In this document: positions 6,001 to 41,452 of the stretch, piece after piece | Layout: every line of letters begins with the position of its first letter | Numbering within the stretch: position 1 is the first letter of the stretch | Assembly (NCBI GenBank): GCA_000092065.1 | Contig: CP000591.1 | Strand: one strand, 5' to 3' | DNA from: Ostreococcus lucimarinus | Lineage: Eukaryota | DNA length: 64,000 nucleotides | Position numbers and translations under genes: made by a program | Notes under the pieces: generated by a model | Told to the model about the DNA's origin: nothing | Seen by the model: the letters and a program-made list of their open reading frames with translations, nothing else | The model's database searches: none

Positions 6001-9000
6001 GAGTCTGAGCGCGACGCGCTGCGTTCGCAGCTCTCTGAGCTTCGTCAAATGTCCTCCGAATCCATCGCAGGACTCCAGCAGCAATTAGTCGCATTTTCGG
6101 CGGAGGCGGACTCTGCGGCTTCCTTGAGAAAAACAGTTAAAGAGTTGAAGGCAACTATCAGACAGCGCGAAAATTTGCTTTCTGAAACGGTGTTCGATCC
6201 GATGTTGAATGATGACTTGGACCGTATGAACGATGAGCTTGCATCGAAGAGTGCGGAACTAGATTCTGCACGGACGAAGTTGCAGTCGACTCTTAATAAG
6301 TTAAAAGAACGCGAGGAGCAGGCTGAATCTTCGCAAGCTGTTGCAAGTGCTGTCATAGATGAGATCCGCGCCGAGCTTTTGAATGCAAACGAAAAGTTGG
6401 CTGCTCGTGAGTCATACGCCAACGCTGTTGAGTTGGCGCTGCGGTCAGAACTCACAGAAAGAGAGAAAGAAATTGCGCTTTTGCGTGTCAAGGTAGCTAA
6501 AATTCTCGATGACAGCACGAACAAGCAGACAAGTCTCACCACTGCGCTCGATTCTGCGCAGTCTGAGATTGAGCGCCTCACTCGCGAGCTCGAGGATGTT
6601 GAGCAGAGCAAGCAAGTGGCCATGAAGGAGTCATTTGAGCGCAACGAATCGCAGATTGCGTCTCTGAACGCCGCGCACCGCGAGTTGGATCAGCGCCTGC
6701 GAGACGAGCTCGACGCGGCGCTCAAAGCGAAGGCAAGTCTTGAGAAGGAGCTCAGCGACCGCGCGGAATCCACCGCTGCTACCGAAACAGCGAAGCGCAA
6801 CGCCGAAGCACTGAGCGAAAGCTTGCAATCGCAGCTTGATGCACTGTCCACGCAGCGTGCTGAGCTCGAGCAGCGGCTGGTCAAGCGCGAGGAGGAGCTC
6901 GTCGCTGAGCTTGACGCAGCCAAGCATGAAGCCACAGCGCAGGCCGCACGTTTTGCACAACTTGGCGAGGCGGCCTCAGATCACGCACACGACGAGGTTG
7001 ATAAACTTAAGTCCGAAGTGGAACGACTCGAGTTTGAGCTCGGCGCTGTGAAAAACGAGCTGACAAGCGCGACGTCGACTGCGAAAGCGGACATTGCGAG
7101 GCTTACGGATGAACTTGCAAGCGCCAGCGCCGCGCGAGACGCCGTGGCTGAAACCGCTCATCCAGAAGAAGACGGGTCATCGGAGTCCGCATCGGCGTTC
7201 GAAGCCATGAGACGCGACATGACTCGTCTCGAGTCGGAGCTTGCCGCCGCTCTCGCGGAGCTTGCGGAGCTCGAATCGCCTCGCGAGTCAGAGTCCTCAG
7301 ATACTGAAGCTATTCGCGAGTTCACCACTGCGCTCGATTCTGCGCAGTCTGAGATTGAGCGCCTCACTCGCGAGCTCGAGGATGTTGAGCAGAGCAAGCA
7401 AGTGGCCATGAAGGAGTCATTTGAGCGCAACGAATCGCAGATTGCGTCTCTGAACGCCGCGCACCGCGAGTTGGATCAGCGCCTGCGAGACGAGCTCGAC
7501 GCGGCGCTCAAAGCGAAGGCAAGTCTTGAGGAGCGCAGCGACCGCGCGGAATCCACCGCTGCTACCGAAACAGCGAAGCGCAACGCCGAAGCACTGAGCG
7601 AAAGCTTGCAATCGCAGCTTGATGCACTGTCCACGCAGCGTGCTGAGCTCGAGCAGCGGCTAGTCAAGCGCGAGGAGGAGCTCGTCGCTGAGCTTGACGC
7701 AGCCAAGCATGAAGCCACAGCGCAGGCCGCACGTTTTGCACAACTTGGCGAGGCGGCCTCAGATCACGCACACGACGAGGTTGATAAACTTAAGTCCGAA
7801 GTGGAACGACTCGAGTTTGAGCTCGGCGCTGTGAAAAACGAGCTGACAAGCGCGACGTCGACTGCGAAAGCGGACATTGCGAGGCTTACGGATGAACTTG
7901 CAAGCGCCAGCGCCGCGCGAGACGCCGTGGCTGAAACCGCTCATCCAGAAGAAGACGGGTCATCGGAGTCCGCATCGGCGTTCGAAGCCATGAGACGCGA
8001 CATGACTCGTCTCGAGTCGGAGCTTGCCGCCGCTCTCGCGGAGCTTGCGGAGCTCGAATCGCCTCGCGAGTCAGAGTCCTCAGATACTGAAGCTATTCGC
8101 GAGTTCACCACTGCGCTCGATTCTGCGCAGTCTGAGATTGAGCGCCTCACTCGCGAGCTCGAGGATGTTGAGCAGAGCAAGCAAGTGGCCATGAAGGAGT
8201 CATTTGAGCGCAACGAATCGCAGATTGCGTCTCTGAACGCCGCGCACCGCGAGTTGGATCAGCGCCTGCGAGACGAGCTCGACGCGGCGCTCAAAGCGAA
8301 GGCAAGTCTTGAGAAGGAGCGCAGCGACCGCGCGGAATCCACCGCTGCTACCGAAACAGCGAAGCGCAACGCCGAAGCACTGAGCGAAAGCTTGCAATCG
8401 CAGCTTGATGCACTGTCCACGCAGCGTGCTGAGCTCGAGCAGCGGCTAGTCAAGCGCGAGGAGGAGCTCGTCGCTGAGCTTGACGCAGCCAAGCATGAAG
8501 CCACAGCGCAGGCCGCACGTTTTGCACAACTTGGCGAGGCGGCCTCAGATCACGCACACGACGAGGTTGATAAACTTAAGTCCGAAGTGGAACGACTCGA
8601 GTTTGAGCTCGGCGCTGTGAAAAACGAGCTGACAAGCGCGACGTCGACTGCGAAAGCGGACATTGCGAGGCTTACGGATGAACTTGCAAGCGCCAGCGCC
8701 GCGCGAGACGCCGTGGCTGAAACCGCTCATCCAGAAGAAGACGGGTCATCGGAGTCTGCATCGGCGTTCGAAGCCATGAGACGCGACATGACTCGTCTCG
8801 AGTCGGAGCTTGCCGCCGCTCTCGCGGAGCTTGCGGAGCTCGAATCGCCTCGCGAGTCAGAGTCCTCAGATACTGAAGCTATTCGCGAGTTCACCACTGC
8901 GCTCGATTCTGCGCAGTCTGAGATTGAGCGCCTCACTCGCGAGCTCGAGGATGTTGAGCAGAGCAAGCAAGTGGCCATGAAGGAGTCATTTGAGCGCAAC

Positions 9001-10632
9001 GAATCGCAGATTGCGTCTCTGAACGCCGCGCACCGCGAGTTGGATCAGCGCCTGCGAGACGAGCTCGACGCGGCGCTCAAAGCGAAGGCAAGTCTTGAGA
9101 AGGAGCTCAGCGACCGCGCGGAATCCACCGCTGCTACCGAAATAGCGAAGCGCAACGCCGAAGCACTGAGCGAAAGCTTGCAATCGCAGCTTGATGCTTC
9201 TCGCGCTGAAGAGGCGAAGCTCCGTGATGAGCTCAATCATTTTCAGGAGCTTGCACGAGAGGAGATTTCAGCACTCCATAATGAAATTACCGAAATAAAA
9301 TTCACGTCGCAAGAAAGTCAAGCGTCGCTTGGAGAATCACCGTGGCCGAGTATCACAATTTCCACCCTTGCGGGTCTTAACGAGATGATGTCTCGGGGAT
9401 CTGAATTCGGGAGTGAAGGCTTAGATTGGCTTGAGCACGCCGCACACGAAGTACAAGCGCTTGAAAAGTCCGTGTTGGATGCGACGGCTGAGCTCGAGTT
9501 ACGAGAGAATGAATATGAACAAACTATTGCACAGTTGCAAGATAGTGTTCGTGACGCGGAAACTGACCTCAACTCGCAGAAGAGTCTGGCTAGCGCAGCT
9601 TTGAGCGACGTCGAGCATCTGAATGATAAATTGGCCGAACGCGATGAGGAGCTGGCATCACTCCGGCTCGAACTCGCGAACTTGGTTTCAGATGACGTCA
9701 CACGCGAGCTTGAATTAACGATCAGTAATTTGAGGATACAGCTGACCGCAAAAGATAACGAGTTGAATGGAGCTGTCGCGTCGTTGAATGATTTGGAAAA
9801 CGACAAGAGAGCTATAGAAGAAGCAATGTCCGAACTACAAGCTGCAGCTGACATGCAAGCAGCTCGAGTGCAAACATCGATTGAGCAAATATCAAGTTTG
9901 AATGTTGAGCTGGCCAAGCGCTCTGCAGCTCTTGATGCTAGTTGGGATAATCTTTCTCACGCTGAATCACGCGCACGTTTTGCCGAGCAAGAGCGAGACG
10001 ACGTTCGCCGGCTTTTTGAGGAGCGACTTGCTGTGAAAGAGCGAGCACTACGCGAGACACAAGGAGATGTTGAACATCTTCGTCAGACGGTGCGTAATCT
10101 TCAGGATAAATTGAAAGCACATAGATATGCACGTTCTGAGACCGAAGCTGGTCATCCAGAAGAAGACGGGTCATCGGAGTCTGCATCGGCGTTCGAAGCC
10201 ATGAGACGCGACATGACTCGTCTCGAGTCGGAGCTTGCCGCCGCTCTCGCGGAGCTTGCGGAGCTCGAATCGCCTCGCGAGTCAGAGTCCTCAGATACTG
10301 AAGCTATTCGCGAGTTCACCACTGCGCTCGATTCTGCGCAGTCTGAGATTGAGCGCCTCACTCGCGAGCTCGAGGATGTTGAGCAGAGCAAGCAAGTGGC
10401 CATGAAGGAGTCATTTGAGCGCAACGAATCGCAGATTGCGTCTCTGAACGCCGCGCACCGCGAGTTGGATCAGCGCCTGCGAGACGAGCTCGACGCGGCG
10501 CTCAAAGCGAAGGCAAGTCTTGAGAAGGAGCTCAGCGACCGCGCGGAATCCACCGCTGCTACCGAAACAGCGAAGCGCAACGCCGAAGCACTGAGCGAAA
10601 GCTTGCAATCGCAGCTTGATGGAAAAACTTGA
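1..10632 (+). CDS. Giant coiled-coil repeat protein, 5' portion. The frame-1 ORF is open from the window edge, so the gene is truncated at its 5' end. It carries N-terminal hydrophobic segments and long heptad-rich repeats, and ends at a 1-nt frame break that probably joins it to the 10619..17740 ORF.
   Basis: There is no stop in frame 1 from nt 1. The start at 25 in the ORF track is a GTG, so the ORF continues upstream. Translation is E/L/R/A/S/Q-rich with heptad periodicity, as expected for coiled coil. It contains the 258-bp and about 783-bp in-frame tandem repeat arrays. The same repeat units continue in frame in the downstream ORF. Confidence 0.8.
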   Translation, partial: AAAIGSSSVIFGTALALKVIPRPMMQVLAILLASTVAPLLGVYVEELRLHRTSTRRTRLMILSDCSLYGSWDAVAGTVAWACAFNQSADAFGPALAQSSFVAFIVAAACRWMRAMYVLYVIDHWIIQTVAAMSQEFTETVSRATVVVMEEVSRAPIVVKETVSRVSVAIAETVTQTPDVVSHNDESPQPVAEPKMHERSDNNEAAVASVKMRVAREPQPVVMESAPSSDAAPVAGESVSVTQQPDERRIEYAPPYTAVIREQDPRPEPPRVVYAPAFVVVEEASTSSSTESDVTQPLESKRRRRQRKRQYRRRESLAKNTIDMSEIVSKEVNIALNMGVSIEAELQRMLDRRQSTLNDMKNQQANPISIAQVEADIAALRAELRRATTSREQFQRAQTSYESDLEMWMESIRAAAAVSRLDYAIDSLKNASVADDPQVKELIDQRAVWGLRLVSSQIFTIVELQDSLDSGEARSSARIAELRGAIESLELKLTRLQEEKTQSVDNRILLEDRLQKLNLEIDSVRERERVAQEDWQRERLRLEVELEASVKELQTATRTVDDALKAKLELLAKLQTAQDQSDTDAEAIRRLEHETETLQTKLKSLTEQLSVANASVEQINSRRFDLESQLRAKATELDLANANRADTSLVEELRRQVKNLSTEICWLRDQKSREGSEAEAVLQKQLAEARTQLEIQRNELEIEAKAEISELKRSMDVIREEMERLTSEMSEKTEKSLEYQRIVQERQKEIESLTKNKELAARAIDESKKNLAQAQEALETKQKALDDRVSQVASLSLDLAASEEKTLTLERELSASCQRSQELEELISSLRSYSESRDALLADIDLLLGNENDEREAMLRGSKNASDLVERIQKRLRREVVLEKKLDQAQLLEQVGLTVEELKTREAASLWWKDLVQIGSKALETIQSTAVDLSKGTVTASLLERSISLRAKELQNITSEPQYQRLQKSFNDLKRLSEAAERKLQEKERKIKSLKADSKESAAELKALTSELASVKEDLKYIRDIAKEERDEQIQRIESLMLEVDSFENAKFDGEEAVRFRNEAAKLRGMKIRLEAELKLSQDLAETASSELARAREEHDVVITQLSEEIAALELDITVKSEAIEKLESKTNNIEVKLGSDLESALAKLNTTLEELDKKSTDFASLESASVEQKRNFEKHVDELEKRLGASEAEVQRLIQDRDLAIEAKDNEMVSKILSQSAIVSDLESERDALRSQLADLSSARDSELASVRADLESQLREREEDIERVRSELDESKAALESERDALQSELERVLSQVPEVDASQSAIVSDLESERDALRSQLADLSSARDSELASVRADLESQLREREEDIERVRSELDESKAALESERDALQSELERVLSQVPEVDASQSAAVSDLESERDALRSQLADLSSARDSELASVRADLESQLREREEDIERVRSELDESKAALESERDALQSELERVLSQVPEVDASQSAIVSDLESERDALRSQLADLSSARDSELASVRADLESQLREREEDIERVRSELDESKAALESERDALQSELERVLSQVPEVDASQSAAVSDLESERDALRSQLADLSSARDSELASVRADLESQLREREEDIERVRSELDESKAALESERDALQSELERVLSQVPEVDASQSAIVSDLESERDALRSQLADLSSARDSELASVRADLESQLREREEDIERVRSELDESKAALESERDALQSELERVLSQVPEVDASQSAAVSDLESERDALRSQLADLSSARDSELASVRADLESQLREREEDIERVRSELDESKAALESERDALQSELERVLSQVPEVDASQSAAVSDLESERDALRSQLADLSSARDSELASVRADLESQLREREEDIERVRSELDESKAALESERDALQSELERVLSQVPEVDASQSAAVSDLESERDALRSQLADLSSARDSELASVRADLESQLREREEDIERVRSELDESKAALESERDALQSELERVLSQVPEVDASQSAAMSDLESERDALRSQLSELRQMSSESIAGLQQQLVAFSAEADSAASLRKTVKELKATIRQRENLLSETVFDPMLNDDLDRMNDELASKSAELDSARTKLQSTLNKLKEREEQAESSQAVASAVIDEIRAELLNANEKLAARESYANAVELALRSELTEREKEIALLRVKVAKILDDSTNKQTSLTTALDSAQSEIERLTRELEDVEQSKQVAMKESFERNESQIASLNAAHRELDQRLRDELDAALKAKASLEKELSDRAESTAATETAKRNAEALSESLQSQLDALSTQRAELEQRLVKREEELVAELDAAKHEATAQAARFAQLGEAASDHAHDEVDKLKSEVERLEFELGAVKNELTSATSTAKADIARLTDELASASAARDAVAETAHPEEDGSSESASAFEAMRRDMTRLESELAAALAELAELESPRESESSDTEAIREFTTALDSAQSEIERLTRELEDVEQSKQVAMKESFERNESQIASLNAAHRELDQRLRDELDAALKAKASLEERSDRAESTAATETAKRNAEALSESLQSQLDALSTQRAELEQRLVKREEELVAELDAAKHEATAQAARFAQLGEAASDHAHDEVDKLKSEVERLEFELGAVKNELTSATSTAKADIARLTDELASASAARDAVAETAHPEEDGSSESASAFEAMRRDMTRLESELAAALAELAELESPRESESSDTEAIREFTTALDSAQSEIERLTRELEDVEQSKQVAMKESFERNESQIASLNAAHRELDQRLRDELDAALKAKASLEKERSDRAESTAATETAKRNAEALSESLQSQLDALSTQRAELEQRLVKREEELVAELDAAKHEATAQAARFAQLGEAASDHAHDEVDKLKSEVERLEFELGAVKNELTSATSTAKADIARLTDELASASAARDAVAETAHPEEDGSSESASAFEAMRRDMTRLESELAAALAELAELESPRESESSDTEAIREFTTALDSAQSEIERLTRELEDVEQSKQVAMKESFERNESQIASLNAAHRELDQRLRDELDAALKAKASLEKELSDRAESTAATEIAKRNAEALSESLQSQLDASRAEEAKLRDELNHFQELAREEISALHNEITEIKFTSQESQASLGESPWPSITISTLAGLNEMMSRGSEFGSEGLDWLEHAAHEVQALEKSVLDATAELELRENEYEQTIAQLQDSVRDAETDLNSQKSLASAALSDVEHLNDKLAERDEELASLRLELANLVSDDVTRELELTISNLRIQLTAKDNELNGAVASLNDLENDKRAIEEAMSELQAAADMQAARVQTSIEQISSLNVELAKRSAALDASWDNLSHAESRARFAEQERDDVRRLFEERLAVKERALRETQGDVEHLRQTVRNLQDKLKAHRYARSETEAGHPEEDGSSESASAFEAMRRDMTRLESELAAALAELAELESPRESESSDTEAIREFTTALDSAQSEIERLTRELEDVEQSKQVAMKESFERNESQIASLNAAHRELDQRLRDELDAALKAKASLEKELSDRAESTAATETAKRNAEALSESLQSQLDGKT
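408..545 (+). repeat. Imperfect 33-39 bp coding mini-repeats encoding E(T/E)VSRA.(V/I)VV, about 4 units
   Basis: Direct reading shows acagagacggtgtcgcgagcgaccgttgtcgtt / gaagtttcgcgagcgccgatcgtcgtt / acagtttcgcgagtttctgtcgcgatt. Translation shows ETVSRATVVV / EEVSRAPIVV / ETVSRVSVAI. Confidence 0.5.
3652..6033 (+). repeat. Tandem array of about 9.2 copies of a 258-bp (86-aa) in-frame coding repeat, here called repeat A. Copies are more than 99% identical.
   Basis: The period of 258 nt was read directly; for example tccgct(a/g)(t/c)cgtgtccgatctcgagtctgagcgcgacgcgctgcg recurs at 3659, 3917, 4175, 4433 and so on. Each unit encodes SQSA(I/A)VSDLESERDALRSQLADLSSARDSELASVRADLESQLREREEDIERVRSELDESKAALESERDALQSELERVLSQVPEVDA. 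Copies differ only by an atc/gcc (I/A) codon, and the last copy has A->M. Confidence 0.9.
6538..9190 (+). repeat. Tandem array of about 3.4 copies of a 783-786 bp (261/262-aa) in-frame coding repeat, here called repeat B
   Basis: Unit starts (accactgcgctcgattctgcgcagtctgagattgagcgc) lie at about 6538, 7324, 8107 and 8893. Copies are near-identical apart from an in-frame 3-nt indel (KELSDR versus EERSDR/KERSDR) and T/I substitutions. The array ends where the sequence diverges after cagcttgatgc at about 9190. Confidence 0.85.
10150..10619 (+). repeat. Partial copy of repeat B (about 470 bp, the 3' 60% of a unit), separated from the main B array by about 960 bp of unique coding sequence
   Basis: catccagaagaagacgggtcatcggagtc ... 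gcttgcaatcgcagcttgatg is nearly identical to 7157-7626, 7940-8409 and 8723-9192. Confidence 0.8.
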
Positions 10633-35310: not shown

Positions 35311-36455
35311 TTATCTCCCTCGCCGCATCTCGGCGTATTCGTCTTCGCTCGCGCGAAGCAGCGTTAGCATTCTCTTCGCGTTTTCGCCGCCGTCGTTGTT
35401 GACGTGCGGGAAAATGAACTTTGGGTTCATGAAGCGCACAAACTCGCGTAACTCGTTCAGGCTCGAGTGTTCGGAGTACGGCAAACCGTATTGAATCAGC
35501 CTCCCGCGCTGCCTTCGCGACGTTGCTCTCGCCGTTTTCTTCTGCGCGCTAAACGTCCAACCCGTCGGACGAAACGCGATAACGGTGTCGAATCGACTTT
35601 TATAATACTTCAAAATGGACGCCATCTTCATGAAACTCGTCGAGCCCATCGGAACGACGTGCAAGTTTGTTTTCGAGTCGTCGTGCGTCATGGCGCTTCT
35701 CTCCTCGGGATCGAGCGCTATGGCGTCCATGACGCTTCGCTTCGCCTTTCCGATGTACACCTTGCGATTCAACACCTTTGCAGCTTCTAAAAACACTTTC
35801 TCTTTTCCGATCGTGTACGTCCCGAACAAGAACAACTTGCGCGTCGAGAGCAAGTCCTCGTGCACCACGGCGTCGCGAACGGCTTTCAACACGCGCTCTT
35901 GCGTCGGAAAATCGTCGTGTTCGAGCGAACAATACGTCGTGTCGAGGATCAATATCGGCCTCGGCGCCGAAGGATCGCTCGTGATCCGCAAAAGCGTCGG
36001 ATCGTTCCGCATGCCGTCGTGAAATCTAAAATCTCCCGTGTGCAACACCGGCGACGCGTCGCGCCGATGCGGAAACTCGAAACAAATCATCGCCGCTCCC
36101 GGGCAATGATTCGCGCGCAAGAACGTCACGTCCACGCCATCCACGCGCACGACGACGCCGAACTCAACCACGCGCAACCGTTCGCGCGGCACCCCGATCT
36201 TCGTTCGCACCAACTCCGTCGTCGTCCGCGTTCCGTACACGACGCCGCGATCGAACGTTCGCGTCAACCCGCGGTGATGATCCGCGTGAAAGTGCGTCAG
36301 AAACCAGTGTTCGCACCGCGCTTCGCTCGACGCCGCGTACTCGAACCCATCGACGATGAACATCGTTCCCGGCGGCCGTATCCACGCCGGCGGTTTCGCC
36401 TTCGCCTTCGCCTTCGCCGGCGGTTTCGGTTTCGGTTTCGGTTTCGGTTTCGCCT

Positions 36456-36495
<40 letters not shown>

Positions 36496-36756
36496 GCCCG
36501 TCTCGCGCGCCGTCCCCGACGCGAACACCGGCGCGACGCGCGTCGCCTCGTCTCGCGCCTCCGATCGCGCCTCGCGCGCGATCCGAACCCGCGCGCCGAG
36601 CGTCTTCCCCCAACCGATCGCGCCCAGCGTCGTCGTCGCGTCCTTCGCGCGCAGCGCGTCCATCGTCGCTCGCGCGTCGCGCAGTCGCCCTCGAACGAGC
36701 TCGGTCGCGCCGCGCGCGCGCGCGAACGCGACGCACCGCGCGACGTCGTCGTCCAT
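35311..36756 (-). CDS. SNM1/PSO2/Artemis-family DNA cross-link repair nuclease (metallo-beta-lactamase plus DRMBL), with a poly-Thr and (KP/AK)n low-complexity insert
   Basis: The motifs are HFHADHHRGL, MBL-type HxHxDH, and the downstream DRMBL region ...VIAFRPTGWTF...YGLPYSEHSSLNEL. The start was set at the ATG at 36756 (verified) to avoid overlap with the inhibitor-2 gene. The ORF extends to 36906. Confidence 0.75.
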
Positions 36757-36904
36757 CACGGCGCGCGCGTCGACGCGATCATCGACGATTCGGCGTCGCG
36801 GAGTGCCACACGCCGACGCGCCGTTTGAAAGCGCCCGCGCGCGCTCGGCCCGCCGCGCGACGCGAAAAAACGGTCGACGAACCGACGCGATCGAGCGCGA
36901 GGGC

Positions 36905-37399
36905 ATGACGCCGCGCCGCGACGACGCGGCGTCGCCGAAGCGCGCGAAACGCGCGGTGGAGTGGGACGAGGCGAACCTGGCGAAAAACTTTGCCGAGCGG
37001 AGCGCGACGATGAAGATCGAGGAGATCGAGACGCCGTGGCACAGCCCGCCGAGGGAACTGTTTCATGACCTGCGCGCGGAGGACGAGGGGGAGGTGGCGC
37101 GGCGGGAGCGGGCGCACGAGGAGGTGATGCGGCGACTCGAGGCGTTGATTCGAGCGGACGCGCGAGGCGAGACGTCGACGCCGCCGACGACGAAGGATGC
37201 GGACGCGACGATGGGGGACGAGGGAAGCGAGGATGGGACGTCGAGGGTGGCGTTTCACGATCCGGACGCGAGGGACGAGGATTTCGAGGACGACGCGGAG
37301 GAGGTGGTGAAGAAGAGACTGTTCGACGCGAAGCGAAAGGCGTTTCAGTGCAAGGGACGGGCGACGGCGAGGTTTCTCGCGGACGAGGCGGGCGATTGA
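36905..37399 (+). CDS. Protein phosphatase 1 inhibitor-2 (IPP-2) homologue, 164 aa
   Basis: The ATG at 36905 was verified. VEWDEANLAKNFAERSATMKIEEIETPWHSPP matches the I-2 signature WDEMNILATYH...MKIDEPSTPYHS. The C-terminus is acidic. Confidence 0.6.
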   Translation: MTPRRDDAASPKRAKRAVEWDEANLAKNFAERSATMKIEEIETPWHSPPRELFHDLRAEDEGEVARRERAHEEVMRRLEALIRADARGETSTPPTTKDADATMGDEGSEDGTSRVAFHDPDARDEDFEDDAEEVVKKRLFDAKRKAFQCKGRATARFLADEAGD

Positions 37400-37450: not shown

Positions 37451-40400
37451 TTAGGCGGAGGCGCGCGCGGCGAGGTCGACGAGATCGGCGTCGTCGCCGG
37501 CGCTGACGACGACGCCCGAGCCGAAGTCGGATTTGACAACCTTGTCAACGACGTCGAATAAGTGCGCGGTCGCGCTGTCGGCTTGACTCGTGAGTAATAC
37601 CGTACGCTTAGGGAGCGCGCGGAGGAGGGATGTGACTCGCGCGATGCCCTCGGCGTCGAGGTGCTGGAGAACTTCGTCGAGGACGAGGGCGTCGCACGCG
37701 ACGCCGCATCGCTCCGAGGCGAGATCGGCGTACGCCAAAGCGAGCGCCAAAGCGGCGCGTCGGCGTTCTCCGCCAGATAATTGTCGAAGCGAACGGGCGA
37801 TCAAACTGCCGTCGGGGCGACGGGCGTGGATCACGCGCTCGATGCGTTCGGCGGCGCTCGCGCTCGCGGGCGCCTTGGCCGATTTGCTCTTCGTCTTTCT
37901 CGTCGCCGTCTCGTCCGCGTCGACGTCGCTCTGCACGACGTCGTTATCGTCCCCGGTGAACGCCGCTCCCGCGGGACGAAGCTCGAGCGTCAAGGCACCG
38001 CCGGTGAGGGCGTCCATGTATTGACCCACGCGCGCGCTCAAATCTCCGAGCGCGCCTTCAAACAGATAACTCTGAATGCCCTTCGTGCTAAACGCTGTGT
38101 CTGCGGCTTGAGCGACGCCAAGGAGCTCTTTTGCGCCATTCAAGGATTCGATTCTCGCGCCGAGAGATTCGCTTTCACCCGCGAGTTGCGCGTCGAGCTC
38201 TTCGAGCGCGCTCGTGTGTGGATTTGAACGCGCCGAACGCGAGAACTCATTCAGCTCTTGCAAGCGTCGTGCCGCGTCACGCCCGGCGCGTTCGCCATCC
38301 ATGATGGCGTCTTCTGCACCTTTGACCAACTGTCGAACGAAATCCGCGTCGGCGACGTTCATTTGTTCGTCGCGAAGGAGCTGGATTTGCGGAGAGGCGT
38401 TCGACAAAGACGCAGACGACATCGATCCTCGCGTCAAGTCGGGATCGAGGCCCGCAAGCACGTTCGAGGACGCGCCGGATATACTGATCGTCGACTCGCT
38501 CATCGCAAATGCATCATCGATTGACATTGTCAGCGCTTCGTGGACGACGTCCTCGGGCGCTGAGTTTAACAACATTTCCGCCCTCGCCACCGCATTGCCG
38601 ATGAGGCTCAACGACCTCTGAGAATGTCGCAACTGATCTGTCGCGTTTGCGGAAGCTGTCGCGGTGGTTTCCGCGCGCATGCGTTCGGCTTTGCGTGCAA
38701 GCGCGGCTGCTTCGGTGAGATTGCGTCTATCATCCATTGCCTTGTTCAGAGCCGCCGTGGCGCGCTTGAGTTGCTCGATGGCGTTCCCGTGCTCAATCGC
38801 CGTCTTTCGCGCTTCATCCTTCAATTTTATGAGCGTTTCTTTGTGATGCGTCGGGTCGATGGCTTGTAAGCAACGATCGCACGTACCGACACCATCTGGA
38901 TGCGAGTGTGTGCCTCCAGCGCCCGCGAACATACCGACTGCGGCGTGACTTTGACGTCCGATGGCGCCCGCGCTCGCCTCCTTGGATTGCCACTCGCGTA
39001 CGACACCGTTAAGTCGTTCGATTTCGCCTTCGATGACGGACGTTTTGTGCTCGAACTCGGATTCTTTCACTTCAAAGCGACGTGCCGCATCATCAGAGTC
39101 ATTTCGTGACGAGTCTAGCACGCGTTCGGCGTGACTCGACGTCACTTCAAGTGCCTCGCTCGCGCGACTCAATCGTTGGAGGAAATGATTTGTCCTCGCT
39201 AAATACTTCGTGAAGGTTGTTGAAACCGCGCTCGAGCTCGTCTCAAGCTCGCTCACGCGGCGCCTGTACTCGAATTCCCACTTCTCACTCTCCACGTGCG
39301 CTTGATCGCGTCGAAGGCGCGTTCGAGCGATGTACTCTTCCCGCGCCTTGACTTCGGCGGCGATGGCGTTGACGTTTCCTCTCGCCTCGGTAACTCGCTT
39401 GCGAGAAATGTCCTTCGCCTTCGTCCACGTGTCCGCCTCGACGAGTTTACCCAGCGCCGCTTTCAACGAAGCGTCGTTCGCGTCGAGCAAAGCTCCTACA
39501 GTGTGCTGACCGTGAAACGTCGTGTTCGCGATGACGTCGGCGCCGAGATCATCGTTCAAGCCTTGCTGCGTCAGTTTTGACTCAGCCATCGTCTTTTCTT
39601 CGCCATCAATGGCGTACTTTAAGCTCACTAATTTCGTTCTGTTCACTTTACGTTCCACCCAAAACGGCGTGCCACCGTTCAAGAACCCTTCTAAGCGAAC
39701 GCGGCCGAATTTCGACGAATCGTTGACGACGTCCGACTTTGTGAGCGACTTGCCCGATCCCGCGCCGTCGATTCGCAAATCACTCTGTCCCGTAAGCGCC
39801 CACATCGGGGACATCACTAACGTCGTCTTCCCCGCACCATTAGAATCCGAACACGTGTCGGATTTGTTCTCTCCCACGACCACGCACACTCCTCTGGCGC
39901 CGAGCGGGTAACGCGTCGCCGACTGAAACGTTCCAAATCCCTCTACTTCCACCGTCTCAAAAGAAACGCTCACACCTTTCGATTGTCGGCGCGTTTCGGG
40001 CGCATCATCAGACGCGGCGACTTCTTGTAAAACTTTGCGCCCGAAAGCGCTGACGCTCGGTGCCATCTCGCTGGCGACGGCGTATGCATCGAACAGTCCC
40101 GCGGGCCCGAGCTCCTCCGCCTTTGGTATGCGCGCCGTGAGATCCTTGGTGACGTAGCACACCTCTACGATGAACCCCTGGTCCCGAGCTTTCTGCACCA
40201 CTGACGGTACGGCGTCGGAAACCGCATCCATGGCTTCGATCGGAAGCGTCCAGCGGATGATGTCTCCCGGACGCGCCGTCGGCGGCGCGCTCGCATCGAC
40301 GCCCTCGACGGCGAAATGTTTCGGCCCGATGTCCAAACTCACGCGCGCATTCGCGCCTTCGACCCACGTCTGCGAGTCAAGAACGATGAACTCTTTCTTT

Positions 40401-41452
40401 TGTCCAGCTTCAGACCGCGAGACTTCGTATGGCGACCCGACGTACGTAATGTTTGTGTTCGGAACGACGTGCGGTTTGTGATAGTGTCCCGTGTACGTGT
40501 TCGCGCCGCCGAAGAGCGCGGGGTCTAATCCATCTCGCGCTTGGAACGTCTCGTTCATGCTAGCTCCGACGACATCGGCGTGACAAAATATCGCGTTGAA
40601 CTCGCCTCGCGTGTCCTCGATCGCGCGCTTGAGTTCATCCGAGTTTCGGCGATACGGCAACCACAACGCGCCGCCGTAAAGCGTCGGCCCGTCAAAGACG
40701 ACGATGTTCGGATTAGCCTTCGCCAGCGGCGTGAGCGCGTGAGATAACCCTCCGGCGGTGACTTGATCGTGGTTCCCCGGAATCATGATCGTCGGCGCCG
40801 TCCACTTCGCGCTCGACATCAACGCCAGCGCCTCGTTGAGCGGTTCGACTGGAATCGCTCCGCGCGCGTGCCAAAAGTCTCCCAAAAATACCACTCCCGC
40901 CTCGCGTTTCAGCGCCTCTGCGTGCACGCGCTCGAGCACCCGTCGACACGTTTCCATGGTGCGTTTACTGACGTGCAAGTCACTGAACACGATCCATCGC
41001 TCGACGCTCGAGTGCGCCGGCGACAGCTCGCTCGCGCGAATCGTCGCGCCCCCACCCTCGCCGCCGACGTCCGCCACCGCGCGCGCAGGCGCCGCCCGCA
41101 CGACGCGCGGATCGATCACACGCCCGCGTCCGCCTCGCGCGGGCGTCGTCAACGCGCGCGCGCGCGCCGCACGCGCGATGGCAGTTTTCCCGCCAGAATG
41201 ATTGTTAGCGATCGATGACGACAGTTTCCTCGCGCCCTGCGTCGTCGTCATCGATGCCGCCCACGCGCGCGCGCCGAGCGTCACGAAACGCGTGTACGTA
41301 TCACTCGACGACGCGGTCGTGGACGCGAGGCGCAGCGCGTGCGTCACGCCGCGTCGCATTCTGATGTTGTCTTGACTTTTAAGCGTGCGGACGCGCCATC
41401 TTGCGCCGCGACGCGGCGCGGCGCGCGTCGTCGCGACCGCGCGCGCTGCCAT
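37451..41452 (-). CDS. Fused Mre11/SbcD-like metallophosphoesterase plus Rad50/SbcC-like ABC ATPase (coiled-coil with CxxC zinc hook) in one polypeptide, with a roughly 150-aa A/R/S/T-rich presequence-like N-terminus
   Basis: The ATG at 41452 was verified; the ORF runs upstream to 41965 through low-complexity sequence. Phosphoesterase motifs are IVFSDLHV, LGDFWHARG, GNHDQ, CHADVVG and GHYHKPH. Walker A is VVVGENKSDTCSDSNGAGKTTL. The hook is GTCDRCLQAI. The signature is LSGGERRRAALALALAY and Walker B/D-loop is LVLDEVLQHLD. Confidence 0.75.
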   Translation of the reverse strand: MAARAVATTRAAPRRGARWRVRTLKSQDNIRMRRGVTHALRLASTTASSSDTYTRFVTLGARAWAASMTTTQGARKLSSSIANNHSGGKTAIARAARARALTTPARGGRGRVIDPRVVRAAPARAVADVGGEGGGATIRASELSPAHSSVERWIVFSDLHVSKRTMETCRRVLERVHAEALKREAGVVFLGDFWHARGAIPVEPLNEALALMSSAKWTAPTIMIPGNHDQVTAGGLSHALTPLAKANPNIVVFDGPTLYGGALWLPYRRNSDELKRAIEDTRGEFNAIFCHADVVGASMNETFQARDGLDPALFGGANTYTGHYHKPHVVPNTNITYVGSPYEVSRSEAGQKKEFIVLDSQTWVEGANARVSLDIGPKHFAVEGVDASAPPTARPGDIIRWTLPIEAMDAVSDAVPSVVQKARDQGFIVEVCYVTKDLTARIPKAEELGPAGLFDAYAVASEMAPSVSAFGRKVLQEVAASDDAPETRRQSKGVSVSFETVEVEGFGTFQSATRYPLGARGVCVVVGENKSDTCSDSNGAGKTTLVMSPMWALTGQSDLRIDGAGSGKSLTKSDVVNDSSKFGRVRLEGFLNGGTPFWVERKVNRTKLVSLKYAIDGEEKTMAESKLTQQGLNDDLGADVIANTTFHGQHTVGALLDANDASLKAALGKLVEADTWTKAKDISRKRVTEARGNVNAIAAEVKAREEYIARTRLRRDQAHVESEKWEFEYRRRVSELETSSSAVSTTFTKYLARTNHFLQRLSRASEALEVTSSHAERVLDSSRNDSDDAARRFEVKESEFEHKTSVIEGEIERLNGVVREWQSKEASAGAIGRQSHAAVGMFAGAGGTHSHPDGVGTCDRCLQAIDPTHHKETLIKLKDEARKTAIEHGNAIEQLKRATAALNKAMDDRRNLTEAAALARKAERMRAETTATASANATDQLRHSQRSLSLIGNAVARAEMLLNSAPEDVVHEALTMSIDDAFAMSESTISISGASSNVLAGLDPDLTRGSMSSASLSNASPQIQLLRDEQMNVADADFVRQLVKGAEDAIMDGERAGRDAARRLQELNEFSRSARSNPHTSALEELDAQLAGESESLGARIESLNGAKELLGVAQAADTAFSTKGIQSYLFEGALGDLSARVGQYMDALTGGALTLELRPAGAAFTGDDNDVVQSDVDADETATRKTKSKSAKAPASASAAERIERVIHARRPDGSLIARSLRQLSGGERRRAALALALAYADLASERCGVACDALVLDEVLQHLDAEGIARVTSLLRALPKRTVLLTSQADSATAHLFDVVDKVVKSDFGSGVVVSAGDDADLVDLAARASA

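What the first reader, a model, noticed from the sequence alone, without database searches (positions are those of the whole stretch)
37451..41452. Single-polypeptide Mre11/SbcD plus Rad50/SbcC fusion with organelle-presequence-like N-terminus
In both eukaryotes (Mre11, Rad50) and bacteria (SbcD, SbcC) the phosphoesterase and the SMC-like ABC ATPase are separate polypeptides. Here one 1333-aa ORF carries all five calcineurin-like phosphoesterase motifs, followed by Walker A, a short SbcC-length coiled coil with a CDRC zinc hook, and the LSGGE signature plus Walker B. It is preceded by a roughly 150-aa A/R/S/T-rich, acid-poor N-terminal extension typical of plastid or mitochondrial presequences. 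That suggests a bacterial-type DSB-processing machine fused into one protein and targeted to an organelle, which is not part of the canonical plant or algal organelle repair toolkit.
Basis: partly seen in the sequence, partly recalled or inferred. Interest (0 to 1): 0.75.

Follow-up and report, generated by a model that had tools for sequence, protein, structure and literature searches.

The report
Fused SbcD-SbcC nuclease, probably plastid-targeted
A nuclear gene of an Ostreococcus-like green alga encodes, in one 1302-residue protein, both halves of the DNA-break-processing machine that is normally two proteins; this fusion family was described in 2011 in the sister genus Micromonas, but its close kinship with phage enzymes and its likely delivery to the chloroplast remain untested.

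Summary
A single minus-strand ORF carries an N-terminal Mre11/SbcD-type phosphoesterase, a helix-loop-helix and a 13-residue linker. These are followed by a Rad50/SbcC-type ABC ATPase with a CxxC zinc hook. Every catalytic motif is invariant across 23 relatives, 21 eukaryotic and two phage. The start is most likely ATG 41359 (1302 aa), not 41452.

The fusion is not new. The 90%-identity cluster of hit P0016 contains Micromonas pusilla C1N0B1. That is one of the 'moss-diatom-prasinophyte' Mre11/Rad50 fusions published by Yoshida, Claverie and Ogata in 2011.

I add three points.
- The family is phage-type rather than cyanobacterial. Uncultured phage proteins, both split and fused, are about 41% identical over the trimmed conserved columns. 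They group with the eukaryotic proteins at 99.5% bootstrap. E. coli SbcCD is 22% identical.
- All named eukaryotic hits are plastid-bearing: green and red algae, bryophytes, a lycophyte, diatoms, brown algae, Chromera and Euglena.
- Only the eukaryotic versions have an acid-poor N-terminal extension. In ochrophytes it is a signal peptide followed by a small|Phe site, the complex-plastid import signature.

Plastid targeting and a role in end resection or hairpin cleavage are inferred, not shown. Interest is moderate.

The parts
37451..41359 (-). Whole CDS (1302 aa + stop) of the fused SbcD/SbcC-type protein, with the most likely start at ATG 41359.
   Evidence: ORF list. P0001 is 100% identical with the same start. 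'MRR' starts in sister species. AT-rich patch upstream. CDS GC 0.609 equals window GC 0.607.
41009..41359 (-). N-terminal extension, residues 1-117. It is acid-poor, A/S/T/R-rich and not conserved in sequence. It contains 'VVRA|AP' (residues 86-91, 41087-41104), which is shared with O. tauri. Putative organelle (plastid) targeting peptide.
   Evidence: Composition and comparison with phage versions, which have only 16-20 residues here. Alignment. Not tested experimentally.
40121..41008 (-). Mre11/SbcD-type phosphoesterase plus capping domain, residues 118-413. Motifs I-V lie at 40973-40987, 40868-40885, 40763-40777, 40571-40588 and 40469-40489.
   Evidence: Pfam Metallophos. phrog_100 at 97 bits. 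Invariant motifs. AF2 block-mean pLDDT mostly above 85. Foldseek hits to SbcD 7dog_B (TMt 0.65) and 4lty, and to Mre11 4tug.
40013..40120 (-). Two-helix (helix-loop-helix) segment, residues 414-449. It corresponds in position to the Rad50-binding HLH at the C-terminus of Mre11/SbcD.
   Evidence: AF2 helices 297-312 and 317-332 of the model, which are residues 414-429 and 434-449. Conserved 'RI..AE.L.P..LF..YA'. The role is inferred from the T. maritima complex as discussed in PMC3175470.
39974..40012 (-). 13-residue linker, residues 450-462. This is the fusion junction. In split phage relatives the SbcD stop and the SbcC start overlap at this point.
   Evidence: AF2 coil. In L004 the ORFs 5965-6993 and 6990-9071 overlap by 4 nt. 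The length fits the 9-12-residue expectation in PMC3175470.
39437..39973 (-). Rad50/SbcC ATPase N-lobe, residues 463-641. Walker A lies at 39821-39844 and the Q-loop at 39503-39517.
   Evidence: Pfam AAA_23 and SMC_N. phrog_77. Alignment. PDB profile hits to Rad50.
38093..39436 (-). Antiparallel coiled coil, with an ascending arm at residues 642-813 and a descending arm at 836-1089. The CxxC zinc hook (CDRC 827-830, 38870-38881) sits at the apex. The descending arm carries a disordered low-complexity insertion at residues 952-1004 (38348-38506).
   Evidence: AF2 long helices 525-696 and 719-972, with a loop at the hook and pLDDT below 50 in the insertion. C827, C830 and Q832 are invariant. Top Foldseek hit is Rad50 7zr1.
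37454..38092 (-). Rad50/SbcC ATPase C-lobe, residues 1090-1302. Signature LSGGE lies at 37766-37780, Walker B at 37673-37687 and the D-loop at 37646-37666. The H-loop position is Gln1259 (37583-37597) instead of His.
   Evidence: Pfam SbcC_Walker_B. PDB profile hits to Rad50 3aux (1e-19) and 3qf7. H-to-Q substitution shown.

Best explanation
Shown:
- This is a native nuclear gene of an Ostreococcus-like prasinophyte.
- It encodes a one-chain version of the SbcD/SbcC (Mre11/Rad50) nuclease-ATPase.
- It is an orthologue of the published 'moss-diatom-prasinophyte' Mre11/Rad50 fusion group.
- Its nearest non-eukaryotic relatives are uncultured bacteriophage proteins, some split into two adjacent genes and some fused. 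They are not cyanobacterial or other cellular SbcCD.

Inferred:
- The roughly 90-120-residue N-terminal extension is a transit peptide that delivers the protein to the plastid.
- There, two chains dimerise through the nuclease domains and the zinc hooks.
- ATP binding closes the two ABC heads on DNA.
- The Mn-dependent nuclease then cuts hairpins or cruciforms and trims blocked or broken ends. This would produce substrates for RecA-type recombination repair and recombination-dependent replication of plastid DNA, as T4 gp46/gp47 does for phage DNA.
- The covalent link replaces the non-covalent contact between the HLH and the coiled coil, guaranteeing 1:1 stoichiometry after import.
- The gene would have entered the plastid-bearing lineage from a phage and then travelled with plastids through secondary endosymbioses.
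For: Architecture and motifs.

Fold:
- AF2 mean pLDDT 81.
- Foldseek hits to Rad50 7zr1 (3e-17), SbcD 7dog, 4lty and 7yzo, and Mre11 4tug.
- PDB profile hits to Rad50 3aux (1e-19) and SbcD 7dog (2e-9).

Orthology with the published family:
- P0016 (E = 1.5e-272; 47% identity over 57% of the query) shares a 90% cluster with UniRef100_C1N0B1, Micromonas pusilla.
- C1N0B1 is listed in PMC3175470.

Native gene: CDS GC equals window GC, and the neighbours are SF1, SNM1, IPP-2 and NF-YC.

Phage affinity:
- 57 viral loci against 3 weak prokaryotic ones.
- The L004 SbcD-like protein is 42% identical over 313 aa. It sits in a module of DnaB, primase, SSB and UvsX genes.
- P0074 and P0087 are fused proteins on phage-like contigs that carry SSB, MT-A70, RNase_T and endolysin genes.
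- In the NJ tree the clade {eukaryotes + L004 + P0074 + P0087} has 99.5% bootstrap. Its sister groups are all viral, and E. coli SbcCD is only 22% identical.
- PHROG scores far exceed the NCBIfam scores.
- In the exhaustive search, extension-less proteins of about 340 aa and about 1040 aa rank among the algal orthologues.

Plastid link:
- Every named hit is plastid-bearing, including Chromera and Euglena.
- The N-terminal extension occurs in eukaryotes only.
- 13 of 27 ochrophyte orthologues have a hydrophobic h-region followed by a small|F/W/Y site, for example 'IASS|FQ', 'IPRS|FQFS' and 'SMLS|FV'. Only 1 of 27 green or red orthologues does. From background knowledge, this is the ER-signal + ASAFAP-type motif used for diatom plastid import and is not used for mitochondria.
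Against: - I found no experimental localisation or biochemistry for any member.
- For the Ostreococcus protein itself, the presequence cannot separate chloroplast from mitochondrion. TargetP and PredAlgo were not available.
- The H-loop His-to-Gln change in green and ochrophyte members may slow or alter ATP hydrolysis.
- Monophyly of the eukaryotic sequences is unresolved (9.5% bootstrap, NJ only). The direction and number of transfers between phages and eukaryotes are therefore not settled.
- The hosts of the closest phages are unknown.
- Absence from seed plants and from plastid-less relatives rests on which names appeared in the hit lists and on the 2011 survey, not on an exhaustive test.
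Confidence: 0.6

Rival explanations
1. Same enzyme, but imported into mitochondria, or dually into mitochondria and plastids, in the green lineage.
For: The Ostreococcus extension is Arg-rich and acid-poor, and has Arg at -2 of the conserved 'VVRA|A'. This is also compatible with a mitochondrial presequence. From background knowledge, dual targeting is common for organellar DNA-maintenance proteins, and green-algal transit peptides resemble mitochondrial presequences.
Against: The taxonomic distribution follows plastids, not mitochondria. No named hit comes from a plastid-less eukaryote. Ochrophyte orthologues carry signal-peptide + small|Phe motifs, which direct proteins into complex plastids. 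Bryophyte extensions are Ser-rich with 'V-A-C|S'-type ends, typical of chloroplast transit peptides (direct reading).
Confidence: 0.2
2. A non-canonical nuclear or cytosolic paralogue of Mre11-Rad50. It would be a domesticated viral gene used in nuclear DNA repair or against viruses, and the N-terminal extension would be a disordered tail rather than a targeting signal.
For: Giant viruses of algae and amoebae encode fused homologues, for example Tetraselmis virus and Pyramimonas orientalis virus. The C-lobe hits the PADLOC defence model mad3 at 1.8e-20. Yoshida et al. proposed virus-to-cell transfers without invoking organelles.
Against: An extension that varies in sequence but keeps a constant composition, present in essentially all eukaryotic members and absent from all viral ones, is what import signals look like. 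The ochrophyte signal peptides argue against a nuclear or cytosolic location. The mad3 hit covers only the generic ABC C-lobe. The plastid-restricted distribution would be unexplained.
Confidence: 0.1
3. A recently integrated viral or phage gene, or assembly contamination, rather than a host gene with a host function.
For: The closest non-eukaryotic relatives are viral.
Against: CDS GC (0.609) matches the window (0.607). The gene lies between ordinary nuclear genes. Orthologues at 69-81% identity exist in sister Ostreococcus-clade genomes, and at 33-50% across green algae and bryophytes, in a pattern close to the species tree.
Confidence: 0.03
4. Two adjacent genes, nuclease and ATPase, wrongly read as one ORF.
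For: Most phage relatives are split at exactly this junction.
Against: The reading frame is uninterrupted across the junction. The linker is collinear in all orthologues. Complete transcripts from MMETSP and a Euglena transcript carry both Pfam domains. O. tauri is annotated as a single 1268-aa protein.
Confidence: 0.02

Closest known systems
Mre11/Rad50 (SbcD/SbcC) fusion proteins, 'moss-diatom-prasinophyte group' (Yoshida, Claverie and Ogata 2011, Virol J 8:427, PMC3175470): Micromonas C1N0B1 and C1FJU6, Physcomitrella A9RK34, Phaeodactylum B7FXD6
   Same: Orthologous family with the same order of parts: nuclease, HLH, short linker, then ABC ATPase with coiled coil. It lies outside the canonical Mre11/Rad50 and SbcCD clades and coexists with canonical separate genes. 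The Micromonas C1N0B1 protein sits in the 90% cluster of hit P0016.
   Different: Ostreococcus was not listed there. The paper explained the moss/diatom/green-alga distribution by lateral transfers 'via unidentified intermediates'. It never mentions plastids, organelles or targeting sequences. Function remains uncharacterised.
Bacteriophage SbcD-like/SbcC-like recombination nuclease pairs and fusions (PHROG 100 and 77; functional class of T4 gp47/gp46)
   Same: These are the best-scoring profiles, at 97 and 143 bits. Uncultured phage members are 40-42% identical over 643 conserved columns and fall in one 99.5% clade with the eukaryotic proteins. They share family-specific motifs: FLGDFW, PGNHDQV, TGHYHKPH, SNGAGKTT, GIQSY and LDEVLQxLD.
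   Different: Phage versions have no N-terminal extension (16-20 residues). They keep the H-loop His, have shorter coiled coils (the ATPase is about 640-700 aa) and are mostly two genes.
E. coli SbcCD (PDB 6s6v, 6s85, 7yzo)
   Same: All catalytic residues align. The nuclease + capping fold and the ABC head match. The presumed chemistry is the same: ATP-dependent cleavage of hairpins and DNA ends (background knowledge).
   Different: Only 22% identity over the conserved columns. The window protein is far below the NCBIfam sbcC and sbcD cut-offs. E. coli has separate subunits and an H-loop His. No close cyanobacterial or other prokaryotic counterpart was found.
Eukaryotic nuclear Mre11-Rad50(-Nbs1)
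   Same: Same superfamily and overall mechanism. The top Foldseek hit is Chaetomium Rad50, 7zr1.
   Different: Separate polypeptides, a much longer coiled coil, Nbs1/Xrs2 partners and a nuclear location. The fusion family is a distinct non-canonical lineage.
Giant-virus fusions (Mimivirus R555 family; Tupanvirus, Catovirus, Tetraselmis virus)
   Same: The same fused architecture is recovered structurally, at E = 1e-25 to 1e-33.
   Different: Only 11-13% identity in the structural alignments. In the 2011 tree this is a separate clade from the algal group.

Membership tests
Mre11/SbcD nuclease family (calcineurin-like phosphoesterase) | Five phosphoesterase motifs: DxH, GD, GNH(D/E), H and GHxH. 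| tested here: met
   D127/H129, G160/D161, G195-N-H-D198, H260 and G291-H-x-H294. They are invariant in 23 sequences and aligned to E. coli SbcD. Pfam Metallophos scores 26.7 bits, above the 21.5 cut-off.
Mre11/SbcD nuclease family (calcineurin-like phosphoesterase) | Nuclease + capping-domain fold, followed by a C-terminal helix-loop-helix that binds the Rad50/SbcC coiled coil. | tested here: met
   In the AF2 model the block-mean pLDDT is mostly above 85. Foldseek hits 7dog_B (SbcD nuclease + capping domain, TMt 0.65, rmsd 4.7) as well as 4lty and 4tug. Two helices lie at residues 414-449. The HLH-coiled-coil contact itself was not examined.
Canonical bacterial SbcD (NCBIfam TIGR00619) | Score above the curated cut-off. 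| tested here: not met
   18.1 bits against a cut-off of 77.65. It is not a canonical SbcD.
Rad50/SbcC ABC ATPase family | Walker A, Q-loop, ABC signature, Walker B and D-loop. | tested here: met
   K511, Q618, LSGGE 1194-1198, D1228/E1229 and D1235. Pfam AAA_23 scores 28.9 bits (cut-off 27) and SbcC_Walker_B 30.5 bits (cut-off 27). PDB profile hit to Rad50 3aux at 1e-19.
Rad50/SbcC ABC ATPase family | H-loop (switch) histidine. | tested here: not met
   Gln1259 occupies this position in the window protein, in every green-lineage sequence aligned at this column (13; a 14th, P0016, has a gap there) and in both diatoms. His is kept in red algae, all phage relatives and E. coli.
Rad50/SbcC ABC ATPase family | CxxC zinc hook at the apex of an antiparallel coiled coil that separates the two ATPase lobes. 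| tested here: met
   C827 and C830 are invariant. AF2 gives long helices on either side of a loop at the hook. Zinc binding itself is not testable here.
Canonical bacterial SbcC (NCBIfam TIGR00618) | Score above the curated cut-off. | tested here: not met
   30.5 bits against a cut-off of 478.5, and only the Walker B region matches.
Published Mre11/Rad50 fusion group (moss-diatom-prasinophyte; PMC3175470) | Both domains in a single ORF, in the order nuclease then ATPase, and orthology to the listed members. | tested here: met
   Single ORF. The P0016 cluster contains C1N0B1. Physcomitrium and diatom orthologues were recovered. The group forms one clade in the NJ tree.
Published Mre11/Rad50 fusion group (moss-diatom-prasinophyte; PMC3175470) | Coexistence with separate canonical Mre11 and Rad50 genes in the same genome. 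| not tested
   Reported for Micromonas in PMC3175470. The rest of this genome is not available in the window.
Plastid-targeted nuclear-encoded proteins | Cleavable N-terminal transit peptide. In complex plastids, an ER signal peptide followed by a transit peptide with aromatic +1. | tested here: inconclusive
   The composition fits and the extension is absent from viral homologues. The ochrophyte motif is present in 13 of 27 sequences against 1 of 27 controls. No dedicated predictor was run and there are no localisation data. For the window protein itself, plastid and mitochondrion are not separated.
Plastid-targeted nuclear-encoded proteins | Experimental localisation in the organelle. | not testable with these tools
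   No paper or proteome entry was found. No Chlamydomonas reinhardtii orthologue ID was recovered for checking the chloroplast atlas.

The most novel reading that the evidence does not exclude
A phage-derived, single-chain SbcD-SbcC machine is a previously unrecognised core component of plastid genome maintenance. On this reading it was acquired early in the plastid-bearing lineage and carried along through secondary endosymbioses into ochrophytes, Chromera and Euglena. It was then lost in seed plants. It would supply the missing end-resection and hairpin-cleaving activity for RecA-dependent repair and recombination-dependent replication of plastid DNA. It would join phage-type RNA polymerase, Twinkle and POP polymerases as another phage-like part of organelle DNA metabolism. 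It would also replace the multiple-lateral-transfer explanation of 2011 with plain endosymbiotic inheritance.
Probability: 0.45. Interest if true: 0.6.

Novelty: new member of a known kind. Interest (0 to 1): 0.35.

Why it matters
Plastid DNA is repaired and, in many models, replicated by recombination. The nuclease that prepares broken ends or removes hairpins at its large inverted repeats has not been identified in algae or early land plants. The reviews and papers retrieved in my searches surface no SbcCD-like organellar enzyme.

If this conserved fusion protein is imported into plastids, it is an obvious candidate for that step. It would be testable by knock-out in Physcomitrium, Marchantia, Phaeodactylum or Ostreococcus.

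It would also be another case of organelles running on phage-type DNA enzymes. It would explain, by ordinary endosymbiotic gene transfer, a taxonomic distribution that the only paper on the family attributed to unexplained lateral transfers. If seed plants have truly lost the gene, the question becomes what replaced it.

As a bare observation (a fused Mre11/Rad50 in a prasinophyte) it is already in the literature, so the finding itself is only moderately interesting.

Tried and rejected
- **Cyanobacterial or endosymbiont origin.** The scan of one genome per prokaryotic species gave only a Clostridiaceae MAG split pair and two Spirulina SbcC-like ORFs, at 24-25% identity. I rejected these as the source.
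- **Cultured phage relatives.** GenBank phages (Herelleviridae, Synechococcus phages and others) reach only 22-27% identity. The close relatives are uncultured. I could not identify hosts for L004 or for P0074 (locus L061). Searches with their SbcD, UvsX-like and SNF2 proteins found nothing close. A cyanophage origin is therefore neither supported nor excluded.
- **Literature on localisation or function.** Seven searches found only the 2011 paper. One search failed on syntax.
- **Chlamydomonas reinhardtii orthologue.** I looked for a gene ID to check against the chloroplast protein atlas. The search with Edaphochlamys P0102 returned no C. reinhardtii entry.
- **Anti-phage defence system reading.** PADLOC gave only a generic C-lobe hit to mad3. 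Rejected.
- **Pfam identity for the extra ochrophyte N-terminal module.** None found.
- **Biopython BLOSUM distance bootstrap.** It timed out. I replaced it with a numpy Kimura-distance NJ.
- **Clade support labels.** The labels printed after re-rooting are unreliable. The bipartition counts are the ones to use.
- **Context of a 1038-aa extension-less relative (P0328).** The contigs are too short to be informative.

Full report
**1. What is in the sequence**

The feature lies on the minus strand.

- a calcineurin-like phosphoesterase (Metallophos, residues 154-236, above the gathering score);
- AAA_23, residues 501-651;
- SbcC_Walker_B, residues 1212-1278;
- an SMC_N match spanning 499-1304.

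The NCBIfam models for bacterial sbcC and sbcD are hit only weakly and far below their cut-offs: 30.5 bits against 478.5, and 18.1 bits against 77.65. The protein therefore belongs to the SbcCD/Mre11-Rad50 superfamily but is not a canonical bacterial SbcC or SbcD.

These are DxH, GD, GNHD, H, GHxH, Walker A, the Q-loop, the CxxC hook, LSGG, Walker B and the D-loop. In a wider alignment they line up with E. coli SbcD and SbcC. Window coordinates of each motif are given.

One canonical feature is missing. The ABC H-loop histidine is glutamine (Q1259) in the window protein, in all the other green-lineage sequences aligned at that column (P0016 has a gap there) and in the two diatoms. Red algae, every phage relative and E. 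coli keep His.

**2. Gene model**

The start is most likely ATG 41359, giving 1302 aa. The evidence is as follows.
- P0001, a 100%-identical metagenome gene call, starts there.
- Three sister-species orthologues (P0002, P0003, P0006) begin 'MRR'.
- An AT-rich patch (CTTAAAAGTCAAGACAACATCAGA) directly precedes it, in a window that is 61% GC overall.

The frame is uninterrupted through the junction between the two domains.

The CDS has the same GC content as the window (0.609 and 0.607). It sits among ordinary nuclear genes: SF1/BBP, SNM1-type DRMBL, phosphatase inhibitor-2 and an NF-YC-like histone-fold protein. It is a resident nuclear gene, not a recent insertion.

**3. Structure**

I modelled residues 118-1302 with AlphaFold2 from a 71-sequence alignment. 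Mean pLDDT is 81 and pTM 0.65. The model shows, in order (model residue numbers; add 117 for protein numbering):
- a confidently folded nuclease + capping domain;
- two helices (model 297-312 and 317-332, which are residues 414-449), where Mre11/SbcD has its Rad50-binding helix-loop-helix;
- a 13-residue coil;
- the ABC N-lobe;
- a ~170-residue helix up to a loop containing the CxxC;
- a return helix interrupted by a disordered low-complexity insertion (residues 952-1004);
- the ABC C-lobe.

Foldseek against the PDB puts Chaetomium Rad50 (7zr1) first, at 3e-17. The N-terminal part matches S. aureus and E. coli SbcD and M. jannaschii Mre11, with TM up to 0.65 on the target. A sequence profile of the family hits Rad50 heads (3aux at 1e-19, and 3qf7), SbcD (7dog at 2e-9) and E. 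coli SbcCD.

The 13-residue linker agrees with the 9-12 residues that Yoshida et al. estimated are needed to bridge the C-terminus of Mre11 to the N-terminus of Rad50 in the Thermotoga complex.

**4. It is already described**

A full-text search found Yoshida, Claverie and Ogata 2011 (PMC3175470). They reported Mre11/Rad50 fusions in Mimivirus, in a few bacteria and plasmids, in a phage and in eukaryotes. The eukaryotes included a well-supported 'moss-diatom-prasinophyte group':
- Physcomitrella A9RK34;
- Phaeodactylum B7FXD6;
- Micromonas C1N0B1 and C1FJU6.

They also reported that these species retain separate canonical Mre11 and Rad50 genes.

My hit P0016 (E = 1.5e-272) shares a 90%-identity cluster with UniRef100_C1N0B1. 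The window protein is therefore an orthologue of a published fusion.

The paper does not mention Ostreococcus, plastids, organelles or targeting peptides. It attributes the moss/diatom/green-alga distribution to lateral transfers 'via unidentified intermediates'. Further searches, including one by accession, found no later work on the family.

**5. Relatives: phage-type rather than cellular-bacterial**

A pattern + tblastn scan of one genome for each of 185,579 prokaryotic species found only three weak relatives: a Clostridiaceae MAG and two Spirulina, at 24-25% identity. The same scan of IMG/VR found 57 loci. Most are adjacent SbcD-like (~330-400 aa) and SbcC-like (~640-700 aa) ORFs. At least eight are single fused ORFs of ~975-1180 aa.

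The best locus is L004.
- Its two ORFs overlap by 4 nt at exactly the position of the algal linker.
- They sit in a module of DnaB, primase, SSB and UvsX-like recombinase genes.
- Its nuclease is 42% identical to the window protein over 313 residues, including the HLH. Its ATPase lobes are 35% and 26% identical.

Two fused proteins from the first homologue search, P0074 and P0087, lie on 34-39 kb contigs. These have compact phage-like gene content: SSB, MT-A70, RNase_T, lytic transglycosylase and a peptidoglycan-binding endolysin.

Over 643 conserved columns the window protein shows the following identities:

| Compared with | Identity |
|---|---|
| The three closest phage sequences (L004, P0074, P0087) | 40-42% |
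| Red-algal orthologue | 37% |
| Diatom orthologue | 41% |
| Other viral clades | 25-29% |
| E. coli SbcCD | 22% |

In a neighbour-joining analysis with 200 bootstraps:
- the clade {all eukaryotic fusions + these three phage sequences} has 99.5% support;
- its successive sister groups are all viral;
- monophyly of the eukaryotes alone is unresolved, at 9.5%.

PHROG profiles for phage SbcC-like and SbcD-like proteins score 143 and 97 bits. An exhaustive HMMER search with the nuclease half finds 210 clusters at E <= 1e-30. Extension-less proteins of ~340 aa and ~1040 aa rank among the algal orthologues. Cultured phages are much more distant, at 22-27% identity. The hosts of the close uncultured phages could not be determined. 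Structurally, fused homologues are common in phages and giant viruses.

**6. Evidence bearing on organelle targeting**

(a) Distribution. Every named eukaryotic hit is a plastid-bearing phototroph or a close relative:
- Mamiellophyceae, Chloropicon, Trebouxiophyceae, Chlorophyceae and Bryopsis;
- streptophyte algae (Chlorokybus, Mesostigma, Closterium);
- mosses, liverworts and a lycophyte;
- red algae (Galdieria, Cyanidium, Rhodosorus);
- many diatoms, brown algae and Tribonema;
- Chromera velia and Euglena gracilis.

No seed plant and no plastid-less eukaryote appeared among the named hits. The 2011 UniProt survey likewise found only Physcomitrella among land plants. This is suggestive but not exhaustive.

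(b) The extension. Eukaryotic members have extensions of about 30-240 residues before the first nuclease strand. These are unalignable but uniformly acid-poor and rich in S/T/A/R. The phage members have 16-20 residues. In the window protein D+E is 5% in the extension and 14% in the rest. The sub-motif 'RVVRA|AP' is shared with O. tauri, and a 'VRA(A)' occurs in Micromonas. From background knowledge, this resembles the (V/I)-x-(A/C)|A stromal processing site, but it is also compatible with an R-2 mitochondrial site.

(c) The discriminating test. In ochrophytes, plastid proteins need an ER signal peptide followed by a transit peptide with an aromatic residue at +1. Mitochondrial proteins do not. 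Of 27 ochrophyte and Chromera orthologues, 13 have a strongly hydrophobic N-terminal segment followed within a few residues by small|F/W/Y. Only 1 of 27 green or red orthologues does. Examples are 'IIIASS|FQ', 'LIPRS|FQFS', 'TISNS|FH', 'SSMLS|FVGG' and 'LAHA|WK'. At least four of the sequences that fail begin directly at an internal domain and look 5'-truncated. For example, P0164 lacks the signal that its near-identical MMETSP transcript P0169 carries.

This supports plastid import for the ochrophyte branch. By orthology it makes the plastid the most likely destination in the green lineage, without excluding dual targeting.

**7. Mechanism**

Shown: all residues needed for metal-dependent phosphodiester cleavage and for ATP binding and head engagement are conserved. 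The fold is that of SbcD/Mre11 plus SbcC/Rad50 with a zinc hook.

Inferred from the E. coli SbcCD and Mre11-Rad50 structures and from phage genetics:
- two chains dimerise through the nuclease domains and hooks;
- ATP closes the heads around DNA;
- on binding an end or hairpin, the nuclease dimer is repositioned to cut;
- this yields clean ends or 3' tails for RecA-type strand invasion.

In T4 the homologous gp46/gp47 feeds recombination-dependent replication. A plastid enzyme of this kind would fit recombination-based repair and replication of multicopy plastid genomes rich in inverted repeats.

The fusion fixes the stoichiometry and removes the need to import two subunits. The H-loop Gln may mean slow hydrolysis and hence a long-lived closed state. 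This is speculation.

**8. Verdict**

- The fusion is real and non-canonical, but already published for the sister genus.
- It is phage-type rather than generically bacterial.
- Organelle targeting, most likely to the plastid, is a reasonable inference. It is not in the literature I could search and has not been tested.

I rate the feature a new member of a known kind, with moderate interest.

Noticed in passing
window 37583-37597 (-), residue Q1259: The ABC H-loop histidine is replaced by glutamine in every green-lineage sequence aligned at that position (14 including the window; P0016 has a gap there) and in both diatoms. By eye it is also Gln in brown algae and Tribonema ('VILQD'). Red algae, all phage relatives and E. 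coli keep His. That greens and ochrophytes share Q, while red algae do not, is odd for a red-derived plastid lineage.
   Followed up: partly
Proteins P0113, P0116, P0123, P0136, P0200, P0203, P0230 (ochrophyte orthologues), between the targeting signal and the nuclease domain: There is a conserved ~50-residue extra module, roughly 'F-x-(I/V)GD-x-V...G-x-(V/I)...GGWY(T/S)(I/V)-x-L...(V/I)K-x-R'. It is absent from green, red and phage versions. It has no Pfam match, and its pattern recalls small SH3/Tudor/KOW-like beta-barrels.
   Followed up: partly
The two genes are head-to-head, with only about 94 bp between their likely start codons.
   Followed up: partly
window 35314-36906 (-): The next gene but one downstream on the same strand is an SNM1/PSO2-type DNA cross-link repair nuclease (DRMBL domain, 4.5e-35). 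Its N-terminal region contains T- and (KP)n/(AK)n-rich low-complexity runs. Two DNA-repair nucleases thus lie within 5 kb, probably by coincidence.
   Followed up: no
window 38348-38506 (-), residues 952-1004: A low-complexity, Ser-rich insertion, predicted disordered (pLDDT below 50), interrupts the descending coiled-coil arm. It is present in the Ostreococcus clade and is variable or absent elsewhere. It makes the two arms unequal in length.
   Followed up: no
L011, L017, L018, L020-L024 (viral contigs): A distinct, 100%-supported clade of fused phage SbcDC proteins (~975-1030 aa) has Gly instead of Asp at the ABC D-loop position. Fusion has therefore arisen, or been kept, in at least two separate viral lineages.
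   Followed up: partly
P0119 (Galdieria phlegrea), P0047 (Elliptochloris), P0025/P0062 (Spirogloea-like SM000...): Several database gene models join this protein to unrelated domains (isocitrate dehydrogenase PF00180, a PTEN-like domain, fatty-acid desaturase) or are far too long (1700-1900 aa). These are most likely merged neighbouring genes in the annotations.
   Followed up: no
window protein residues 1006-1290: The PADLOC model mad3, a component of the MADS anti-phage system, matches the ATPase C-lobe at 1.8e-20. I read this as generic Rad50-like similarity rather than a defence function.
   Followed up: partly
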